A DNA stretch of 64,000 bases from Clostridia bacterium (GCA_017625935.1 JAGALA010000001.1:34473-98472), one strand, 5' to 3'; counted from the first letter of the stretch, positions 7,250 through 62,851 are shown. The notes: generated by a model not told the origin, from the sequence alone. Translations and numbers: made by a program.

Positions 7250-7858
7250 TCACCAGCTATATACCGTTTCCACCTCTGACTGCGCTATCGTCTGAGCGAC
7301 GCATTTTGCAAGCCCTTGGGTGAATTTTTGGCGTAAATCCTTTGCTTTTTCGGTATTTTCCTGCGCACAAAGCTCGCTTGCCACAAAGTACGGGATTAGG
7401 CAAGAAACGCTGTCGTCGAGGTCGATTTCGCTCGCATCCTCGGTCACGTATCGCACCATTTGAGCTTTAGGCTTGTAAATTACCTCTATTTCCCCTTTTT
7501 GTGTTCCTGTCAGCATTACTCGCGTGTCGCGCTCGTTGAAGCTAAGCGCCCTGCCGTTTTGATATATCGCTATGATTTTCAAAAGGTCGGGAAGCTCTTT
7601 TTCTAAGTCAAGCAGTCCGCCCGCGCTTTCAAGCCTTGCCGTTGTGCGCTTGGTTTTGGTTGCACCTGCGTTTTCAATTTCGCAAAGCGCGCGGTTGATT
7701 GCAGGCACACAGCTCTCAAGGTAAGCGCGCAGGCTCGGGTCGCACTTAAGCGCGCTTATGCCCTCGTTTACGCTCTCGTCGCTTTCTGCGTCAAAATGCG
7801 CCTCAATCTCGGGGAAAATCAAGAGGAGTGATTGCTTTTTGATTTCTCCAATTTTCAT
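7250..7858 (-). CDS. Phage-module protein, adaptor/connector-like (weak)
   Basis: 202 aa, acidic and helical, lying 4 nt upstream of the 825-aa ORF. The call rests on context only. Confidence 0.4.
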   Translation of the reverse strand: MKIGEIKKQSLLLIFPEIEAHFDAESDESVNEGISALKCDPSLRAYLESCVPAINRALCEIENAGATKTKRTTARLESAGGLLDLEKELPDLLKIIAIYQNGRALSFNERDTRVMLTGTQKGEIEVIYKPKAQMVRYVTEDASEIDLDDSVSCLIPYFVASELCAQENTEKAKDLRQKFTQGLAKCVAQTIAQSEVETVYSW

Positions 7859-8269: not shown

Positions 8270-8355
8270 ATGCCCTCTCTTTCCTTTAACCGCTCATGCG
8301 GCTTTTACCCTTCGCACCCTCATTATTGCATAAAAAAAGCGGTACAGAACGGTAC

Positions 8356-8495
8356 ATTTTCATACAATTTGTGTTTTCAAATTGATTCCATACAAGCATA
8401 TCACTTGATTCCATGCACCTAACGGTGATGCCATACAATGCGTTGCATTGATTTAATACAAGCCACAGGCTTGATCGATGATTTTGAGCGCAAAA
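8356..8495 (-). repeat. Hairpin array A: 6 different short hairpins joined by ATTCCATA-like 8-mers
   Basis: The hairpins are caattt..aaattg, caag..cttg, cacc..ggtg, caatgc..gcattg, caagcc..ggcttg and ttttg..caaaa. They are separated by attccata, attccatg, atgccata, atttaata. On the minus strand the linker reads TATGGAAT. Confidence 0.7.
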
Positions 8496-8522: not shown

Positions 8523-8580
8523 AGTATTTTATTTTGAAATATTATTCTTCTATGTCAGGGAGTTGGAGACAAGGAACCGT

Positions 8581-8616
8581 CCCCTGTCTTATTCCCTGTC
8601 TTAGTCCCCTGTCTTA
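8581..8616. repeat. Three tandem CCCTGTCTTA decamers spanning the stop codon of 8601..9239
   Basis: The sequence is cccctgtctta ttccctgtctta gtcccctgtctta. The third copy encodes the C-terminal KTGD plus the stop. Confidence 0.8.
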
Positions 8617-9239
8617 TCAGCGGAAGCGCCTATATATTTTTCATTTTCTACACATTCAAATTCAAATGACATTTTTTCCCCGTCTATATCGATGATTTTT
8701 AGAGATAAGCTTTGAGAAAGCAGTGCAGTTATTGCTTCTTCACTTTTTTTAGGATAGTTGATTCTATATATATCCGTCTCATTAATTACGATTATTTTTA
8801 CCTCTCCGCTTTCGCTCGAATAAGAATAACAGTGCCAAATGCTTAAATCAAATCCGTCATCATTATCTTCCTTCATCGAGGTATTGTAATATATCTGTGC
8901 TTGCTCTGCTTCTTTGAACTCATACGCAAATATCTCAAAGCTATATTCTTCACATTCATATTTTGCTAAATATTGATTTTCGTATTCCAAGCCGTTCAAA
9001 AATTCGTCTGCGCTTACTGCGTATTTTTCTACACTTCCGTATTCACAAAAGCGCTTTCCCATATTTTCAAGCTCTTCTGTGGTCTCGTATATGTAAAACT
9101 CATCAAAGCTATTATCCATAATTCTATTTGCGAGATATAAAAAGTTAGTAAACATCTCTAACGCACAAGCAGGAAAGCATAATAAAACAATAGCCAACAT
9201 TAATAATAATGCAAGCACTTTAGTAATCGTTTTTTTCAT
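8601..9239 (-). CDS. Secreted/membrane-anchored hypothetical protein
   Basis: The track ORF is 8601..9263. An AGGAGAG RBS sits 5 nt before the ATG at 9239 (MKKTITKVLALLLMLAIVLLCFPAC...), giving a signal/anchor helix with a lipobox-like FPAC. I found no family match. Confidence 0.7.
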   Translation of the reverse strand: MKKTITKVLALLLMLAIVLLCFPACALEMFTNFLYLANRIMDNSFDEFYIYETTEELENMGKRFCEYGSVEKYAVSADEFLNGLEYENQYLAKYECEEYSFEIFAYEFKEAEQAQIYYNTSMKEDNDDGFDLSIWHCYSYSSESGEVKIIVINETDIYRINYPKKSEEAITALLSQSLSLKIIDIDGEKMSFEFECVENEKYIGASADKTGD

Positions 9240-13668: not shown

Positions 13669-14493
13669 ATGTACTATAAGCATAATTTAGACTATAAATA
13701 TCCCGACAAGTGCGACGAGCATATGCTTGTGGTAAAGCGTGTGCGCGAAACGAATTTTGACGAAAATTACGACTATATAGACAAGAAAAAAAGCCGCAAG
13801 GTGAAGAATTTCTTTTTCGCATTTGCTATGAACTTAATTGTTTTTCCGCTCCTTCGCTTAACGCACGGGCTGAAGATTTACGGCAAGGAAAACTACAAGA
13901 AAAACAAGGATTTATTCAAAAACGGCGCGATAACGATTTCAAACCACGTTTTCAAATGGGATTTTATCTGCGTTATCAAGGCGATAAGACCGCACCTTGT
14001 GCGCTTCCCTGCTTGGCAAACGAACTTTGAGGGCTCAGATGCAAAGCTCATTCGTTGGGCGGGAGGCATGCCTATACCGACGCACAGTATGAAGGCGATG
14101 AGGCGCTTCGGGCGCGACTTTGAGGAGCTTTTGGAAAGCGGAAAATGGATTCACTTCTTCCCCGAGGGCTCAATGTGGTATTTTTACCCCGATATTAGAC
14201 CCCTTAAAAAGATGGTCTTTAAGTACGCGGTGAAATTCAACCGCCCGATAATTCCAATGTCGTTTTCGTTCCGTGAGCGAAGGGGAATTACGCGCCTGTT
14301 CACCAAAAAGCCGTGTGTTGACCTGCACGTAGGCGCGCCGCTCATTCCAAACGCGCAAGCACCTGCATACAGCGAGGTTGACCGCCTGCACACCGTCGCA
14401 TACGATATAATGCAAAAAATGGCAGGCATCACTCCCGATATGGAAAACTACCGCACCGTACAGGATTTTGAGAATTACCAAAAAACGATGTAA
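13669..14493 (+). CDS. Lysophospholipid (1-acyl-glycerol-3-phosphate-type) acyltransferase family protein
   Basis: 274 aa with the HX4D motif (NHVFKWD), an FPEGS motif and an N-terminal membrane helix. Confidence 0.75.
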   Translation: MYYKHNLDYKYPDKCDEHMLVVKRVRETNFDENYDYIDKKKSRKVKNFFFAFAMNLIVFPLLRLTHGLKIYGKENYKKNKDLFKNGAITISNHVFKWDFICVIKAIRPHLVRFPAWQTNFEGSDAKLIRWAGGMPIPTHSMKAMRRFGRDFEELLESGKWIHFFPEGSMWYFYPDIRPLKKMVFKYAVKFNRPIIPMSFSFRERRGITRLFTKKPCVDLHVGAPLIPNAQAPAYSEVDRLHTVAYDIMQKMAGITPDMENYRTVQDFENYQKTM

Positions 14494-14494
14494 C

Positions 14495-14610
14495 TGGCGC
14501 AAAGCGAATGAATTGCCCGTTGGGCATGAATTGCAACACAGTTGCATGAATTGACCCGCGGTCATGAATTGGCTATCGCCATGAATTGTTGTTTCACAAT
14601 ATGAATTTTA
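14495..14610 (+). repeat. Hairpin array B: six ATGAATT linkers (core CATGAATTG) separating unrelated short hairpins
   Basis: ATGAATT occurs at 14508, 14526, 14546, 14564, 14581 and 14601. The intervening hairpins are gcccgttgggc, gcaacacagttgc, gacccgcggtc, ggctatcgcc and attgttgtttcacaat. The array starts 2 nt after the stop codon at 14493. Confidence 0.8.
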
Positions 14611-25136: not shown

Positions 25137-25463
25137 ATGACCGTTTTATTTATACTTTTTGTGCTTTTATGCATTATTTTAATACCCCTATTAATAGTCG
25201 TTGATATCGCGCTTGTGATTTTCGCAATTATGATTATCATTTCTGACGCGTCAATCATAAAGGAAACAAAGGGCAAAAAGGGCGCTATCAAAATGGTTGT
25301 TGACGACACGATGGAGGCGCTTGACGAGGTTACCGACATCAAGGACTACGCCGCCGATGCCGCAACCGTTGCCGCCGAGGCAGTTTCCGAGGTTGCCGAT
25401 AAATTTGCCACCGCGGCAAGCGCAGGTGCAGAGGCAGTAAAGGAATCATTCGAGGCGCTATAA
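25137..25463 (+). CDS. Small membrane protein with Ala-rich helical tail
   Basis: 108 aa with two N-terminal hydrophobic helices and a GGGGG-type RBS (aaaaggggga). Confidence 0.6.
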   Translation: MTVLFILFVLLCIILIPLLIVVDIALVIFAIMIIISDASIIKETKGKKGAIKMVVDDTMEALDEVTDIKDYAADAATVAAEAVSEVADKFATAASAGAEAVKESFEAL

Positions 25464-25467
25464 TACC

Positions 25468-25508
25468 AAAAAGGGGCTGTCGCATTGTTAAGCGACGCCC
25501 CTTTTTTA
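25468..25508 (+). terminator. Rho-independent terminator
   Basis: The stem is aaaaggggctgtcgc / gcgacgcccctttt, followed by a T-run. Confidence 0.75.
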
Positions 25509-25510
25509 TA

Positions 25511-25614
25511 GATGTGCTTTAGCACAATTTATGACGTAGTCAATTCATGAAAGCTTGCTTTCAATTCATGCAGCCTCAAGCTGCAATTCATCAAGCGTCA
25601 TATTATGACGCTTA
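25511..25614 (-). repeat. Hairpin array D: AATTCAT linkers (reverse complement of array B motif) separating unrelated hairpins; overlaps the stop codon of 25612..25926
   Basis: The linkers are AATTTAT at 25526 and AATTCAT at 25542, 25563 and 25585. The hairpins are gtgctttagcac, gacgtagtc, gaaagcttgctttc, gcagcctcaagctgc and aagcgtcatattatgacgctt. On the minus strand the motif reads CATGAATTG. Confidence 0.8.
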
Positions 25615-25926
25615 GCTTGCTTCGCGCTCTCTTTGCCTGTCAAGGTGCAAATTGCGGAAGTAAAGTGCAACGTCAATTGAGATTGCAACGAAGTTGACGA
25701 TGTAGAAAACAAAGCTGAGATAGAACACAAAGCCGCTTGAGCCCTGTGTGATTTGAATGATTTTGCGCACAATTCCGAATATGTATCCAACCAAAAGGAA
25801 AATTTCAAAAAACAGGCTTTTTCCCTTCGTCGTTCTCGAAATGTATGATTTTCTTATTGATATTGGCCAAGAAAGACCAAAGCATAAAATTGTAAGTGCC
25901 TCAAGCAAGTCTATTACTATATCCAT
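25612..25926 (-). CDS. PQ-loop / SemiSWEET-like 3-TM membrane protein
   Basis: 104 aa with three hydrophobic helices. FGLSWPISIRKSYISRTTKGKS resembles the PQ-loop motif followed by a basic loop. Confidence 0.5.
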   Translation of the reverse strand: MDIVIDLLEALTILCFGLSWPISIRKSYISRTTKGKSLFFEIFLLVGYIFGIVRKIIQITQGSSGFVFYLSFVFYIVNFVAISIDVALYFRNLHLDRQREREAS

Positions 25927-51466: not shown

Positions 51467-53081
51467 TGTGCGCTCACTCCGTTTTTAGCATCAACTATTG
51501 CTTTTACGTCAGTATATGAGGCAAAGAAATATTTTGCGCCCGTTTCGGGTGTACCGCCCTGCAAATATGCATATTCGGTCTTACCGTCCTTGGTTGTGCC
51601 AACGTATGTGCCCATTGCAAGATCGATATCATCCTGTTCGTCTGTAATGCCTACTATTTTAAGGTTGAAAATATCAAAGCCTGTATTAGTGATATCTGCA
51701 ACAATAACGCCTGCAAGAGCTTTGCCGTCCGCACCGAAAATATCGTTTGCTCCTATCTTCTCTGCCAAAGATGCGAACACGCCGTAGTTAACGGTCTCGC
51801 CCGTGATTTCTTCGTATTTTTCAATAGCCTCATATCCACCTTAAAGCCTATGGACATTCCTCCGCCCGGGTATTCAGCCGCCGAGAAGCCGAGATTTGTA
51901 AAGAGCGCGGGCATCTCTGATATTTCAGTGTATCCACAGCCCTCGCGTTGGCAGGCCGTTACCTTTTCGCCCGATAATGAATAATTTGAATAATTAATTA
52001 CTACGCTTGTATTTCCGTCCACATGGTTAACAATATATGTTCCGCACACATTACAGATGGCAACACAATCGTTTTTCACCGTTGCTTCTCCATGAACACC
52101 GTTACTAAACGCCTCGCATCTGCTGTAATTATATACTGCATATACTCCGCTCTTGTCGGGAAGTGCCCGATATTCAGCATAAGACTTTGTTGTGGCAGAA
52201 ATCACGCTGCTACCGATTGAAGCAGTTAATTCGTCTAATGTACCAACATAGTAAATTGCTTTAAATGATGTGCAACCACTAAACGGTGTGCCGTAGAATC
52301 TTGCCTTGTTACCTATGGAAACAAATTCAAGCTTTGTGCAGTTATTAAATGTTGTTCCACTACCCACTTTAGCCATTGTTTCCGGGAATTTTACACCTTT
52401 AAAGGGAACGCCGCTAAAAGTTGAGGAACCCTCAAATTCGTATAATTGAGTTCTTGTAAGGTCAAGCACCTGTCCGTCAAACAAGCTTGTGCATCCGGAA
52501 AACTGGCTGCTATGTGCCATTCTTTTAAGCTGCGTCAAATCCTCCAAGTTTATATACTTCAATTTAGAGCATCCGGAAAAGGAGTGGGTGTTAATAGCTT
52601 TTGTATCGAGTCTTAGATAACAATATTCAAGATTTTTCATGCCTTCAAACAGCCTCTTAAAGTTGTCCATAGGCTTGTTGAGAAATATAGCATTACCTGT
52701 ATTTCTGATAACATCATCGTCCATCAAATTAATTACTACGATTTTACTTTTAATTGATGTTTTTCCATCCTCAAGCAGGGCGTCCCAGCTCTGAACCTCG
52801 TCCCAGCTTTCTGCCTTCCATGTTACCCTACTGCTGTCATCCGCACAGACTGATGAATAAATCGTCTTACCATTCTCATCTTTACCATCAATATACCAGA
52901 TAAGGGCATTGTGGTTTGTGTCATACAACGGAAGCACGGCCCCGTCATTAAGCGTTACGGTAGCCCTATAATCAACCGTATTAGCGTTATGAACCGATTC
53001 TGCTTCTGCTGACACCGCAAAGGCAAGTGCCAATACAAAAAGAAATGTCATAACAACCATTAAAAATAGTTTCTTTTTCAT
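51463..53081 (-). pseudogene. LRR / Cys-rich / CTD family copy 5, disrupted by a 1-nt deletion near 51831-51835
   Basis: The track shows two ORFs in different frames (51753..53081 and 51463..51780). Alignment with copy 6 (56860-56920) shows one base missing after GFKVD. No slippery sequence is present at the site. Confidence 0.8.
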
Positions 53082-56522: not shown

Positions 56523-58684
56523 TGTGCGCTCACCCCGTTTTTAGCATCAACTATTGCTTTTACGTCAGTATATGAGGCAAAGAAATATTTTGCGCCCGTT
56601 TCGGGTGTACCGCCCTGCAAATATGCATACTCGGTCTTACCGTCCTTGGTTGTGCCAACGTATGCGCCCATTGCAAGATCGATATCATCCTGTTCGTCTG
56701 TAATGCCTACTATTTTAAGGTTGAAAATATCAAAGCCTGTGCCTGTGATATCTGCGACAATAACGCCTGCAAGAGCTTTGCCGTCCGCACTGAAAATATC
56801 GTTTGCTCCTATCTTCTCTGCCAAAGCCGCGAACACGCCGTAGCTAACCGTTTCGCCCGTTGCTTCCTCGTATGCTAAGATCGCTGCCTTATCCACCTTA
56901 AAGCCTATGGACATTCCTCCGCCTGAGTATTCAGCCGCCGAGAAGCCGAGATTTACAAAGAGTGCTGGCATTGGGGTTGTTATATTATTCTTGCAGCCAT
57001 CATTTTGACACGCAACTGTTTTTAATCCCTCTGCGGTATAACCCTTTTCGTATAATACCGTTGTTTTTATATCGTGTATAAGTGCTTCCTTAAGTGTTTT
57101 TAAGCAAACGTCACAGTTAAGAGCGGTTTCACAGTTGAGGTCATCCTCATATGTATGGTTGCCTGTTGCTTTTTCCCCAACTACCACGCTTCGAAGCTTA
57201 CAAATCACACATGTGTTTGTAGTTGTTTCGTCGTAACCGCAGTTTCCCTTTTGATATACTCTGTCATTATAATGAATAGCCTCTGCCTCGTGTGTGCTTA
57301 TATCGTACACTTCGCTCGTTGTATGGAATCTGTACCAACCCTTGTCTGTGTGATTACATCTTATGGTATAGCTTATTTCCACGCTATCTCCTCCACAGAA
57401 AATTATTTCTGTCGGAGAAATTCCAACACTGTGAATAGTGTTGCCGTTTGCATCAGCCCCAAGACCTGTTAGGTTATAATAGTTAGCATTTTCAAAGCTT
57501 ACTGTAAGCGTTCCCTCTTGATTTTGGTAAAGAGAGCTACCATCCTTTGAGATAGCAACAAAGCCTTTTTGTCCGTTAAAATCAAAGGTAGAAACAATAG
57601 CACCTGAAAGGTCAGAAAATTCATTTTTAGCAAATACTAATTTTATCGGTTGCTTTGTGCCATTGTTCATAAAGTTTGTTAATGGTGCATCACATAAATT
57701 AACGTTTGTCATTTTGCCAAGGAACACTAGTGTTAAAGATGTTTTTGGTGCAAATGTGCCAATAAAATTATATCTTGAGCTAAGCGATGTAAATCCTTCT
57801 GGAAAATATAACACGTCGTTTTCAAGCTGACAGTCACTTAAAAAATACTGACCAATAGTCTTTAAGCTTTTTGGTAAATAACTGCTTTCAAACTCAAAAT
57901 CACCTAAATTATATAGTGCCCAAGAACTTATTGTTTCCAACGAATCCGGTAGTGATAACTTATCTATCGCTGTACATCCTCTAAAGGCTGCTTCACCAAG
58001 TGTTTTAAGGCTTTGGCAATTTTCAAGATTTACGCTTGATAAATTTGAACAACCATCAAAACTACACTTAGCTATCGTTTGAACTGCACATCCCTCGGGG
58101 AATATAACAGTTTCAAGATCCTTTGAATTGTAAAAAGCCCATTCATTTATGGTTATAACATTTTTGGAAATAGTAATTTTTTTACAATTATTTATCTCGG
58201 AAAAAGCATTATATGAAATTGAAGTTACAGAATCAGGAATTACAAATTCGACCACATTTGGCTCAGCCTTACCCTTGCCCCATACATTAACGGCAGTGCA
58301 TGAGGTTAAGCCGTACGGAAGCTCCGCATAGTATATGCTTCCTGATCCATAATTTTTTTCCGCTTTCTCATTTACAAACGAGTAATCGACACCATTGTCG
58401 CTTGCCCAAGCTATTCGAACTCCTGAACCATCGATCATATATCTGAATATGTAATATGACGGATATGCAGTCATATTACCATTTGTGTCCTTCAAGATAA
58501 CGATAGATTCCTTGTCCGTAATTTTGGTTGCTGTTGTGCCTGTGTACCATGATGGATCACCTAAATCGTTTACAAGCTCGATTTCTTGTCCCTCGTAAGT
58601 GATTGTTTCAGCACTTATAGAAAGAACAAATAGACAAGCTAATACTGCCACCATCATAGCAATCAAAAGAATTTTCCTTTTCAT
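56519..58684 (-). CDS. Secreted LRR / Cys-rich protein with conserved C-terminal domain (family copy 6, longest)
   Basis: 721 aa with signal MKRKILLIAMMVAVLACLFVLSISA, LRR_5 units and an extended Cys/His-rich region (CNHTDKGW..., NCGYDETTTNTCVICK, NCETALNCDVC, ACQNDGC). The CTD is about 97 percent identical at nt level to copy 5, by eye. Confidence 0.9.
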   Translation of the reverse strand: MKRKILLIAMMVAVLACLFVLSISAETITYEGQEIELVNDLGDPSWYTGTTATKITDKESIVILKDTNGNMTAYPSYYIFRYMIDGSGVRIAWASDNGVDYSFVNEKAEKNYGSGSIYYAELPYGLTSCTAVNVWGKGKAEPNVVEFVIPDSVTSISYNAFSEINNCKKITISKNVITINEWAFYNSKDLETVIFPEGCAVQTIAKCSFDGCSNLSSVNLENCQSLKTLGEAAFRGCTAIDKLSLPDSLETISSWALYNLGDFEFESSYLPKSLKTIGQYFLSDCQLENDVLYFPEGFTSLSSRYNFIGTFAPKTSLTLVFLGKMTNVNLCDAPLTNFMNNGTKQPIKLVFAKNEFSDLSGAIVSTFDFNGQKGFVAISKDGSSLYQNQEGTLTVSFENANYYNLTGLGADANGNTIHSVGISPTEIIFCGGDSVEISYTIRCNHTDKGWYRFHTTSEVYDISTHEAEAIHYNDRVYQKGNCGYDETTTNTCVICKLRSVVVGEKATGNHTYEDDLNCETALNCDVCLKTLKEALIHDIKTTVLYEKGYTAEGLKTVACQNDGCKNNITTPMPALFVNLGFSAAEYSGGGMSIGFKVDKAAILAYEEATGETVSYGVFAALAEKIGANDIFSADGKALAGVIVADITGTGFDIFNLKIVGITDEQDDIDLAMGAYVGTTKDGKTEYAYLQGGTPETGAKYFFASYTDVKAIVDAKNGVSAQ

Positions 58685-62490: not shown

Positions 62491-62851
62491 CTTTTTGACT
62501 GCAAATGCCGGGTAGCAAATTTGAAAACAATTGATAATCGTTTTCGCCGAAGTTTTATCAACAAAGCAAGGGGTTTTACAAACAATTTTGAATTGTGAGG
62601 GAAAACTACTATGCGGTGCAAAACCTTGTAGGGGATGGCGCCCTCGACGTCCCGTTTGCTCAGAATGGTCTCTTTTTGACTCCGAATGCTAGGTAGCGAA
62701 GTTGAAAATGATTGATAATCGTTTCGCCGAAGTTTTATCAACAAAGCAAGAAGTTTTACAAACAATTTTGAATTGTGAGGGAAAATGACTATGCGGTGCA
62801 AAACCTTGTAGGGGATGGCGCCCTCGACATCCCGTTTGCTTAGGAGGGTCT
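62491..62851 (+). repeat. Tandem duplication (181 + 180 nt) of a structured intergenic element ending in CTTGTAGGGG-hairpin-(CTCAGAATG)
   Basis: Copy 1 spans 62491-62671 and copy 2 spans 62672-62851, about 90 percent identical by eye. Each contains the stems TTGATAA/TTATCAA and ACAATT/AATTGT and the hairpin gggatg..cgtccc. Confidence 0.85.

What the first reader, a model, noticed from the sequence alone, without database searches (positions are those of the whole stretch)
25511..25614. Array D: the same linker motif in reverse orientation, overlapping the stop codon of the PQ-loop gene
On the plus strand the linkers are AATTTAT (25526) and AATTCAT (25542, 25563, 25585). They are separated by the hairpins gtgc/gcac, gac/gtc, gaaag/ctttc, gcagc/gctgc and a 9-bp stem aagcgtcat/atgacgctt that includes the TAA of 25612-25926.

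Read on the minus strand (the sense of that gene) the linker is CATGAATTG, identical to array B. That gives two independent loci with the same orientation rule relative to the upstream gene.

The array fills the gap between two convergent genes, right after the plus-strand terminator at 25468-25508.
Basis: seen in the sequence. Interest (0 to 1): 0.6.

Follow-up and report, generated by a model that had tools for sequence, protein, structure and literature searches.

The report
Mobile hairpin-and-linker repeat, Gut-1-like
The 80-base run of small hairpins joined by the fixed spacer CAATTCATG is real: it is one copy of a repeat scattered through the genomes of gut Clostridia, a divergent relative of the unexplained "Gut-1 RNA" motif, and the family travels with a small four-helix-bundle protein gene that may be its partner.

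Summary
Window 25511-25613 reads xATG-H0-L1-H1-L2-H2-L3-H3-L4, where L is CAATTCATG or a near copy, followed by a 9-bp terminal hairpin that overlaps the stop codon of the minus-strand 104-aa gene. Array B (14507-14607) is the same module inverted.

It is not chance and not private to this genome. More than 120 genome loci, nearly all gut or rumen Clostridia, carry it. 115 of 141 arrays have exactly four linkers. The hairpin stems covary and are strictly Watson-Crick.

Near-identical modules sit in unrelated flanks, with copy boundaries exactly at xATG and L4. That marks a mobile or copied element.

Same-species contigs carry a 74-nt contraction of D. A 97% relative keeps the terminal hairpin through a compensatory change.

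The architecture matches Rfam Gut-1 (RF01706, function unknown), but with another linker. Neither B nor D is detected by that model.

PF05635 four-helix-bundle genes are flanked by such arrays, and linker class tracks protein clade.

Best reading: a REP-like, non-autonomous hairpin module acting as single-stranded DNA, possibly recognised by that protein. The main rival is an RNA-level role.

The parts
25511..25514 (+). Half-linker GATG that opens the module (family consensus xATG, usually AATG, CATG or TATG)
   Evidence: In 103 arrays with an H0 hairpin, the two bases before H0 are A (98) then T (93). In the alignment of 56 arrays, the A and G of xATG are invariant columns and the T is nearly invariant.
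25513..25526 (+). Hairpin H0: TGTGC-TTTA-GCACA
   Evidence: DNA fold. The matching helix covaries in the alignment of 56 arrays.
25525..25533 (+). Linker L1, CAATTTATG (one mismatch to CAATTCATG)
25532..25542 (+). Hairpin H1: TGAC-GTA-GTCA, with a GNA triloop
25541..25549 (+). Linker L2, CAATTCATG
25548..25563 (+). Hairpin H2: TGAAAG-CTTG-CTTTCA
25562..25570 (+). Linker L3, CAATTCATG
25569..25585 (+). Hairpin H3: TGCAGC-CTCAA-GCTGCA
25584..25592 (+). Last linker L4, CAATTCATC. This is the 3' boundary of the copied module.
   Evidence: The last linker is CAATTCATT in 83 arrays and CAATTCATC in 23. Near-identical copies diverge exactly after L4.
25593..25613 (+). Locus-specific terminal hairpin AAGCGTCAT-ATT-ATGACGCTT. 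Its outer arm is the stop codon and 3' end of the minus-strand gene.
   Evidence: A compensatory change (AATCGTCAT/ATGACGATT) is seen in L133/L134. A stem of at least 5 bp follows L4 directly in 71 of 141 arrays.
25612..25614 (-). Stop codon TAA of the 104-aa membrane-protein gene (25612-25926)
25529..25536 (+). Left copy of the 8-nt direct repeat TTATGACG that bounds the 74-nt contraction seen in L127/L128
25603..25610 (+). Right copy of the 8-nt direct repeat TTATGACG
25473..25507 (.). Neighbouring bidirectional intrinsic terminator (GGGGCTGTCGC...GCGACGCCCC, with an A-run before and a T-run after). It is not part of the module. It places D inside the 3' UTR of the minus-strand gene and outside the plus-strand transcript.
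   Evidence: and the sequence.
14507..14583 (-). Sister array B, canonical four-linker module. Its L4 end lies 14 nt from the stop of the acyltransferase gene 13669-14493.
   Evidence: 66.4 bits.
14580..14607 (-). Two extra leader-side linkers of array B (CAATTCATG and AATTCAT)

Best explanation
Array D is a solo copy of a small non-autonomous repeat module (about 80 nt) that is dispersed through the genomes of gut and rumen Clostridia.

The module is a string of four short hairpins. Their sequences are free to vary but their pairing is kept. They are joined by a fixed 9-nt linker, CAATTCATG, of which about 5 nt (ATTCA) stay unpaired. The module is a divergent-linker relative of the Rfam Gut-1 motif.

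Shown:
- It is a discrete unit with sharp copy boundaries.
- It is copied to unrelated sites.
- It occurs solo or as inverted pairs.
- It contracts by deletion between short repeats.
- Its stems evolve by compensatory change.

Inferred:
- The selected form is single-stranded DNA of the CAATTCATG strand. The stems are strictly Watson-Crick, and the loops follow the d(GNA)/d(GNNA) mini-hairpin rule.
- The fixed linkers are the recognition sites of a trans-acting protein. The best candidate is the PF05635 four-helix-bundle protein, whose gene sits inside 'master' copies.
- This parallels RAYT genes flanked by REPs. The enzyme that actually cuts and joins is unknown.

At this locus the module sits in the 3' UTR of the 104-aa gene. 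It has recruited that gene's last bases into a fifth hairpin, and it probably also acts passively as a stack of 3' stem-loops.
For: Family and anatomy:
- At least 120 genome loci carry the array.
- 115 of 141 arrays have exactly four linkers.
- 372 of 507 inter-linker segments are end-anchored perfect hairpins, against 18 of 507 after shuffling.
- 292 of 415 hairpin sequences are distinct.

Covariation:
- 98.2% of cells are paired against 72.7% in shuffles. 190 double-sided changes are seen against 55 (0/500 shuffles reach this).

DNA-like pairing:
- In a set chosen by linkers alone, 92-93% of pairs are Watson-Crick. G.T (14), A.C (12) and other mismatches (40) show no tolerance of wobble pairs.
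- Loops on the CAATTCATG strand are GNA in 121 triloops, against about 4 TNC.
- 68 of 85 tetraloops are GNNA, with a pyrimidine at position 3 as often as a purine.
- This matches the GCGNAGC/GCGNNAGC DNA mini-hairpin rule (PMC13037366).

Mobility:
- L077 modules are 78/80 identical with unrelated flanks. L157 modules are 100% identical. L020/L049 (one MAG) are 97% identical.
- Eighteen further pairs diverge exactly after L4.
- Copies also occur in 8 viral contigs.

Local evolution:
- A 74-nt contraction allele is bounded by TTATGACG repeats.
- The terminal hairpin shows a compensatory change in L133/L134.
- The array is absent from orthologues at 90% identity or below.

Partner gene:
- PF05635 genes lie beside arrays in 10 of about 96 loci.
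- Starting from the protein instead, 51 of 80 loci have hairpin-linker chains of at least 3. Only 4 of 101 window tiles do, and all four are B or D.
- Linker class matches that of the nearest protein neighbour in 67 of 78 cases, against 26 expected (maximum 41 in 1000 permutations).

Gut-1 link:
- The architecture is the same. Sister classes score 76, 61 and 54 bits (above the cutoff of 50) and 40 and 37 bits (below it).
- The reciprocal search gives a weak hit.
Against: - No transposase or nuclease is linked to the arrays. An IS200-like gene is seen only once, 4.6 kb from an array.
- The four-helix-bundle protein has no known catalytic activity, and none is encoded in this 64-kb window.
- Co-variation of linker class and protein clade could be plain co-inheritance of a cassette.
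- D's and B's own loops are mostly not GNA or GNNA. The DNA-hairpin argument therefore rests on the family, not on these copies.
- The curators of Gut-1 judged it an RNA.
- In most cassettes the forward array lies co-directionally 16-25 nt upstream of the protein gene's start. That placement would also suit an RNA leader.
- No target-site duplication or defined target was found.
- No expression or structure-probing data exist.
Confidence: 0.55

Rival explanations
1. RNA-level element. The array works as transcribed RNA: a Gut-1-type noncoding RNA or UTR module. Its single-stranded linkers (CAUGAAUUG or CAAUUCAUG), spaced by hairpins, bind an oligomeric RNA-binding protein such as the four-helix-bundle protein. 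Cassette copies would then act as an autoregulatory leader. Solo copies such as D would tie the host mRNA's 3' UTR into the same regulon.
For: - Rfam and Weinberg 2010 class Gut-1 as a likely noncoding RNA on covariation.
- D lies inside the 3' UTR of the 104-aa gene, upstream of the shared terminator. It would be transcribed in the Gut-1 orientation, and the same holds for B.
- In most cassettes the forward array sits 16-25 nt upstream of the protein gene's ATG, co-directionally.
- Avd, a homologue of PF05635 proteins, works in an RNA-templated system (PMC10053308).
- The closest solved relative, 2rld, has five identical chains. That invites comparison with a module of four linkers plus a half-linker.
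Against: - There is no excess of G.U over A.C or other mismatches on either strand.
- Tetraloops are GNYA as often as GNRA.
- Arrays lie in either orientation relative to flanking genes in equal numbers.
- In inverted pairs the two arms put their GNA loops on opposite strands.
- The RNA fold of D on the transcribed strand is less exceptional than the DNA fold of the other strand (z -3.0 against -6.0).
Confidence: 0.3
2. Passive 3'-end structure only. The hairpins are a locally evolved stack of stem-loops that stabilises or insulates the two convergent transcripts. There is no trans-acting partner and no mobility.
For: - The array lies between convergent genes, next to a terminator.
- The terminal hairpin sits at the stop codon and is kept by compensatory change.
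Against: - This does not explain a 9-nt linker held constant in more than 120 loci of many species.
- It does not explain the fixed number of four linkers.
- It does not explain near-identical copies in unrelated flanks.
- It does not explain the linkage to PF05635 genes.
Confidence: 0.07
3. Double-stranded DNA binding sites (iteron-like). A DNA-binding protein reads CAATTCATG repeats in duplex DNA, and the palindromes between them are incidental.
For: The direct repeats are spaced 16-22 bp apart, which resembles iterons.
Against: - The spacing varies (16-22 bp here, 11-30 bp in the family) and is not phased.
- The spacers differ in sequence yet are almost always perfect palindromes with G...A loops. 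That has no use in a duplex.
Confidence: 0.05
4. Chance clustering in AT-rich intergenic DNA.
For: The whole-window motif count equals the chance expectation.
Against: - None of 1000 shuffles gives two clusters.
- The fold z-score is -6.0.
- The covariance model gives E of about 1e-11.
- Hundreds of homologous arrays exist elsewhere.
Confidence: 0.01

Closest known systems
Gut-1 RNA motif (Rfam RF01706; Weinberg et al. 2010, PMC2864571)
   Same: The architecture is identical: four copies of a short A/U-rich linker, with three inner hairpins of variable sequence and length that covary. It occurs in gut Clostridia-type sequences. Arrays that pass the Gut-1 cutoff lie next to homologues of the same PF05635 gene.
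   Different: - The linker is CAUGAAUUG, not GUGAAAU.
- B and D get no hit even at E<=10.
- The published description gives no function, no gene association and no repeat or mobile character, and says 'human gut only'.
- The Rfam strand is the complement of the strand that carries the GNA loops.
REP/BIME elements and their RAYT transposases (E. coli, Pseudomonas REPINs); comparison from my own knowledge
   Same: - Short, multi-copy intergenic palindromic units.
- They occur solo or in clusters of alternating orientation.
- They often lie at gene 3' ends or between convergent genes.
- One protein gene is itself flanked by inverted copies.
- Inverted pairs fold into one long branched hairpin.
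   Different: - Here the palindromes are not conserved and the spacer between them is. This is the reverse of REPs.
- The linked gene is a four-helix-bundle protein, not an HUH Y1 transposase.
IS200/IS605-type single-strand 'peel and paste' elements; comparison from my own knowledge
   Same: - Solo modules have no terminal inverted repeats and no target duplication.
- The elements are rich in hairpins.
- One strand is distinguished from the other.
   Different: No TnpA is linked. The module has four tandem hairpins rather than one subterminal hairpin at each end. No target tetranucleotide has been defined.
DGR accessory protein Avd and the hairpin/cruciform required next to DGR targets (Avd-PF05635 relation per PMC10053308; the hairpin requirement is from my own knowledge)
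   Same: The linked protein belongs to the Avd-like PF05635 family. In both systems DNA hairpins with G...A loops matter in cis.
   Different: No reverse transcriptase and no template or variable repeats were seen in the flanks. The protein clade is the stand-alone '23S rRNA IVS protein' type.

Membership tests
Rfam Gut-1 RNA (RF01706) | Scores at or above the curated gathering score (50 bits) with the Rfam covariance model | tested here: not met
   The window has no gathering hits. There is no Gut-1 hit at E<=10 over D or over B. Same-class arrays elsewhere reach only 40.3 and 37.2 bits.
Rfam Gut-1 RNA (RF01706) | Four short conserved linkers separated by three covarying hairpins of variable length | tested here: met
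   Rfam consensus alignment, D anatomy and covariation.
Rfam Gut-1 RNA (RF01706) | Linker sequence (G)UGAAAU | tested here: not met
   D has CAUGAAUUG on that strand.
Rfam Gut-1 RNA (RF01706) | Expressed as a noncoding RNA | not testable with these tools
   No expression data are available. Wobble statistics do not favour RNA.
REP/BIME with RAYT | Multi-copy, intergenic, solo or in clusters of alternating orientation | tested here: met
   Of 141 arrays, 73 are solo, 56 are in divergent pairs and 12 in convergent pairs. For only 9 of the 141 does the crude ORF call place an ORF across the array.
REP/BIME with RAYT | Conserved palindrome sequence within a genome | tested here: not met
   292 of 415 hairpins are distinct. 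Hairpins differ even within one locus.
REP/BIME with RAYT | Cognate Y1 (HUH) transposase gene flanked by inverted repeats | tested here: not met
   Only one IS200-like ORF (in L044) was found in about 1 Mb of loci, using a query sequence recalled from memory. The flanked gene is PF05635 instead.
MITE | Terminal inverted repeats plus target-site duplication | tested here: not met
   Solo modules have direct, not inverted, linkers. No duplication is seen at the L077 or L039 copy boundaries.
MITE | Non-autonomous copies of a longer element present in the same genomes | tested here: inconclusive
   Longer cassettes with a PF05635 gene exist, but they encode no recognised transposase.
CRISPR array | Repeats of 23-50 nt, unique non-palindromic spacers, cas genes | tested here: not met
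   The repeat is 9 nt and the spacers are 7-17-nt palindromes. The Rfam CRISPR-DR25 match reaches 18 bits against a cutoff of 36.
DGR (Avd + RT + TR/VR) | Reverse transcriptase and template/variable repeat pair next to the Avd-like gene | not tested
   The flanks of the 4HB loci were not screened systematically for RT. The neighbours that were seen are tRNA genes and unrelated genes.

The most novel reading that the evidence does not exclude
Gut-1-type hairpin-linker arrays and PF05635 (Avd-like, '23S rRNA IVS protein') four-helix-bundle proteins form a cognate pair, analogous to REP and RAYT. The oligomeric protein would read the four to five displayed linkers of a module, in ssDNA or RNA. 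Each protein clade has its own linker 'code': CAATTCATG, TATTTCAYA, AATTTAGCT or TGATGATAT. The pair would drive the spread or maintenance of hundreds of modules per genome, including B and D. This would be a new kind of protein-guided repeat system. It would give a first function both to Gut-1 and to the stand-alone PF05635 proteins.
Probability: 0.3. Interest if true: 0.8.

Novelty: new variant of a known kind. Interest (0 to 1): 0.62.

Why it matters
Gut-1 has sat in Rfam since 2010 with one sentence of description and no function. The stand-alone PF05635 four-helix-bundle proteins are equally unexplained.

This locus shows three things:
- The motif is one linker class of a much larger family of dispersed, copied modules in gut and rumen Clostridia.
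- Current Rfam models miss whole classes of the family.
- The family is genetically tied to PF05635 genes, with matching linker classes.

That turns two orphan annotations into one hypothesis that can be tested by binding assays.

It also matters for annotation. The modules overlap stop codons and rewrite protein C-termini, as in the 104-aa gene here and the RumA-like methyltransferases elsewhere. They also create spurious ORFs.

Tried and rejected
- **Literature search by sequence** returned only primers. Searches for hairpin arrays and for PF05635 gave no description of this family.
- **Rfam at gathering and at E<=10** over B and D gave nothing. The Gut-1 link came only through sister arrays.
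- **Mini-ORF or leader-peptide reading** was rejected. Unit lengths of 16, 21 and 22 nt are not multiples of three. The long ORF through B (14170-14565) is antisense to a real gene.
- **A general link to intrinsic terminators** did not emerge from a strict scan, which found almost none. That scan also missed D's own bulged terminator, so the result is uninformative.
- **B and D as the ends of one 11-kb mobile unit** could not be tested. Synteny is lost in the 78-90% relatives.
- **A Y1 transposase partner** was sought and one hit was found in all loci.
- **Other repeats in the window** (1725-1803, 7685-7749, 8580-8618) are unrelated. The four-hairpin run at 8416-8495 is not detected by the model.
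- **About 26 non-Clostridia hits** of the pattern scan are plain tandem repeats without hairpins and were set aside.

Full report
**1. The observation**

The plus strand from 25511 to 25613 reads as follows:

GATG | TGC-TTTA-GCA | CAATTTATG | AC-GTA-GT | CAATTCATG | AAAG-CTTG-CTTT | CAATTCATG | CAGC-CTCAA-GCTG | CAATTCATC | AAGCGTCAT-ATT-ATGACGCTT.

Folded as single-stranded DNA, the stretch forms five hairpins and nothing else. The energy is -24.3 kcal/mol, against -11.8 +/- 2.1 for 200 dinucleotide shuffles (z = -6.0). Folded as RNA on the minus strand, it forms the same five hairpins with z = -3.0.

The TG and CA ends of each linker extend every stem by two pairs. Only ATTCA therefore stays unpaired between helices.

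The last stem covers two of the three bases of the stop codon of ORF 25612-25926.

The array begins 5 nt after the T-run of the terminator of gene 25137-25463. That terminator has an A-run on its other side and so is bidirectional. This places D inside the 3' UTR of the minus-strand gene.

The whole-window count of the motif is at chance, but its clustering is not. Two clusters are observed, and none of 1000 shuffles gives two.

The other cluster is array B (14507-14607), which is the same module on the other strand.

Pfam and NCBIfam do not support the 'PQ-loop' label for the 104-aa protein.

**2. A widespread family**

Nearly all come from gut or rumen Clostridia MAGs labelled Acutalibacteraceae, Oscillospiraceae, Christensenellales or 'Eubacteriales'.

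About 26 hits from other phyla are plain tandem repeats without hairpins and are unrelated.

Of 507 inter-linker segments, 372 are perfect hairpins anchored at both ends. After shuffling, 18 are.

The array is a discrete module, not an open-ended repeat:
- 115 of 141 arrays have exactly four linkers.
- L1 to L3 are CAATTCATG.
- The last linker is CAATTCATT in 83 arrays and CAATTCATC in 23.
- The module opens with a half-linker xATG followed by hairpin H0.

D is a canonical module. B is a canonical module plus two extra leader-side linkers.

A covariance model built from 56 arrays (55 from other genomes plus D itself) finds only B (66.4 bits) and D (65.8 bits) in the window. B's score is the independent one.

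Of the 141 arrays, 73 are solo, 56 form divergent pairs (usually 23-33 nt apart) and 12 form convergent pairs. A divergent pair folds into a ladder of linker-linker helices carrying the small hairpins (z = -6.6).

Copies also occur in 8 IMG/VR viral contigs.

**3. What is under selection**

Hairpin sequences are very diverse: 292 of 415 are distinct. Their pairing is nevertheless kept.
- On the alignment of 56 arrays, 98.2% of cells pair, against 72.7% in shuffles.
- There are 190 double-sided changes, against 55 in shuffles (0/500 shuffles reach this).

That set was pre-selected for Watson-Crick stems, so I repeated the count on arrays chosen by linkers alone (157 arrays, 457 segments).
- Pairs 2 and 3 are Watson-Crick in 93% and 92% of cases.
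- The exceptions are G.T 14, A.C 12 and other mismatches 40.

Wobble pairs are therefore no better tolerated than any other mismatch, and neither strand is favoured.

The loops, in contrast, are strongly strand-specific.
- On the CAATTCATG strand, 121 triloops are GNA, against about 4 TNC.
- 68 of 85 tetraloops are GNNA. Position 3 is a pyrimidine (38) as often as a purine (30).

This is the rule of the very stable DNA mini-hairpins GCGNAGC and GCGNNAGC (PMC13037366). It is not the GNRA rule of RNA.

I infer that the selected form is single-stranded DNA of the CAATTCATG strand, or extruded hairpins.

This argument rests on the family. In D only H1 (GTA) follows the rule.

**4. Mobility**

Near-identical modules lie in unrelated flanks:
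- L077: 78/80 identical, with flanks at the background level.
- L157: 100% identical.
- L020/L049: 97% identical, on two contigs of one MAG.
- Also L030/L047 and L071.

Eighteen further pairs share only the leader-side flank, which holds the partner arm, and diverge exactly after L4.

Identity starts at xATG and ends at CAATTCAT[T/C]. I saw no target-site duplication. The module is therefore the unit that is copied.

**5. The terminal hairpin is local**

Because copies diverge after L4, the longer hairpin that follows L4 in 71 of 141 arrays is locus-specific.

In D, its outer arm is the end of the 104-aa gene. In the 97% relative (L133/L134) both arms have changed together: AAGCGTCAT/ATGACGCTT has become AATCGTCAT/ATGACGATT. 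The protein then ends ...ALQSS rather than ...AS.

At three RumA-like methyltransferase loci the ORF runs through such a hairpin into the module, ending ...VVCLTRH-NELPLA*. Orthologues without the element end ...VCISK* or ...LMSRA* and have no hairpin.

Either insertion favours or creates a hairpin from host sequence, or selection builds one afterwards. I cannot tell which.

**6. Orthologous comparison of D**

- Seven of the nine same-species contigs whose array region I read carry the full array.
- L127 and L128 carry a 74-nt shorter allele that keeps only H0 and one linker. It is bounded by the 8-nt direct repeat TTATGACG (25529-25536 and 25603-25610).
- Because the 97% outgroup has the full array, the short allele is most simply a deletion.
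- Orthologues at 90%, 85% and 79% identity have no array, although their neighbourhoods also differ.

Hairpin number does vary while the linker stays fixed.

**7. Orientation**

Across 141 arrays, the four combinations of flanking-gene orientation are about equal (32/29/27/25).

A weak tendency remains. The L4 end lies within 60 nt of a convergent gene's 3' end in 30 arrays. The leader end lies that close to a co-directional gene's 3' end in 9. Leader ends are often occupied by a partner arm, which biases the comparison.

**8. The linked gene**

Clustering all ORFs of the loci gave one recurrent neighbour: a protein of about 118 aa in 10 loci.
- It matches Pfam PF05635, '23S rRNA-intervening sequence protein' (E 3e-26).
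- It matches NCBIfam TIGR02436, 'four helix bundle protein'.
- Its closest solved structure is 2rld, which has five identical chains.
- Per PMC10053308, PF05635 resembles the DGR protein Avd.

The usual layout is: terminal hairpin, reverse array, a short centre (CATTAAAGGCAATT), forward array, Shine-Dalgarno sequence, ATG. Permuted and gene-in-the-middle layouts also occur.

I then started from the protein alone and fetched 80 metagenome loci.
- 51 of the 80 loci have chains of at least three exact 7-mers with hairpins between them. Among loci with at least 300 nt upstream, 44 of 60 do.
- Only 4 of 101 tiles of this window do, and all four cover B or D.

Homologues at or above about 61% identity nearly all carry CAATTCATG arrays. 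More distant homologues carry the same architecture with other linkers: TATTTCA[CT]A, AATTTAGCT or TGATGATAT. Many of these lie just downstream of tRNA genes.

Linker class equals that of the nearest protein neighbour in 67 of 78 cases. The expectation is 26, and the maximum in 1000 permutations is 41.

This shows that gene and arrays travel as a cassette. That the protein binds the linkers is inference. No such gene lies in this window.

**9. The known relative**

The TATTTCA-class arrays match Rfam Gut-1 (RF01706) above its 50-bit cutoff: L195 at 76.2 bits and L220 at 61.3 and 54.4 bits. CAATTCATG-class arrays reach 40.3 and 37.2 bits, and AATTTAGCT-class arrays reach 30-34 bits.

The Gut-1 consensus is UGAAAU-hairpin-GUGAAAU-hairpin-GUGAAAU-hairpin-UGAAAU. 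This is the same architecture read on the complementary strand.

My model finds L220's Gut-1 arrays in return, at 26 bits (E 0.0015).

B and D themselves are invisible to the Rfam model.

The original paper says only that Gut-1 is found in human gut sequences and is probably a noncoding RNA. No other paper in the library mentions it.

**10. Verdict**

D is real. It is ordinary in the sense that it is one of very many copies. It belongs to a family whose only published member class has no known function.

The best-supported reading is a REP-like, non-autonomous, mobile hairpin module that acts as single-stranded DNA, with the PF05635 protein as the candidate reader of its linkers (confidence about 0.55). 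An RNA-level role is the main rival (about 0.3).

The mechanism of copying is unknown.

Noticed in passing
window 62491-62851: A 180-bp unit repeated twice in tandem (90% match, TRF score 603). It is unrelated to the hairpin arrays.
   Followed up: no
window 8416-8495 (and 8323-8384): Four adjacent short hairpins (CACC/GGTG, CAATGC/GCATTG, CAAGCC/GGCTTG and others) preceded by ...AATTGATTCCATG, but with no conserved linker. This may be a decayed module. The family model does not detect it.
   Followed up: partly
window 8580-8618: Tandem repeat TCCCCTGTCTTA x3.2 in an intergenic stretch.
   Followed up: no
window 51560-51602 and 56616-56658: The same 60-nt stretch (GTACCGCCCTGCAAATATGCATA.TCGGTCTTACCG...) occurs twice, 5 kb apart. 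This suggests a duplicated gene segment.
   Followed up: no
L220 759-1200; L195 992-1200; L199, L206, L233: PF05635 cassettes with their arrays often sit directly downstream of one or two tRNA genes and a terminator. This recalls the family's original discovery inside rRNA operons.
   Followed up: partly
L158 818-1937; L164 317-578; L209 1560-1900: Some metagenome loci carry very long runs of the hairpin-linker units (10-20 linkers) on both sides of the PF05635 gene. The four-linker module can therefore be concatenated or expanded.
   Followed up: no
L032 about 1920-1990; L105 35-110; L113 1100-1180: RumA-like methyltransferase ORFs read through a 9-10-bp hairpin and into the module. They gain the tails NELR*, NELPLA* and NELPMA*, so the element rewrites protein C-termini.
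   Followed up: yes
L010 and L107 (Ferruginibacter / Bacteroidota MAGs): Plain tandem repeats (for example AAGCCCGAGG+CAATTCATG) lie next to ORFs with weak IS200/RAYT-like similarity (E 2.6e-4 and 0.02). This may be an unrelated REP-RAYT system that shares the 9-mer by chance.
   Followed up: no
L124 versus L121 (same-species contigs), downstream of the AP_endonuc_2 gene: Gene content between arrays B and D differs between strains: ORFs of 226, 79 and 88 aa replace the 286-aa ORF and the HTH gene. The 11-kb stretch bracketed by the two inverted modules is therefore variable.
   Followed up: no
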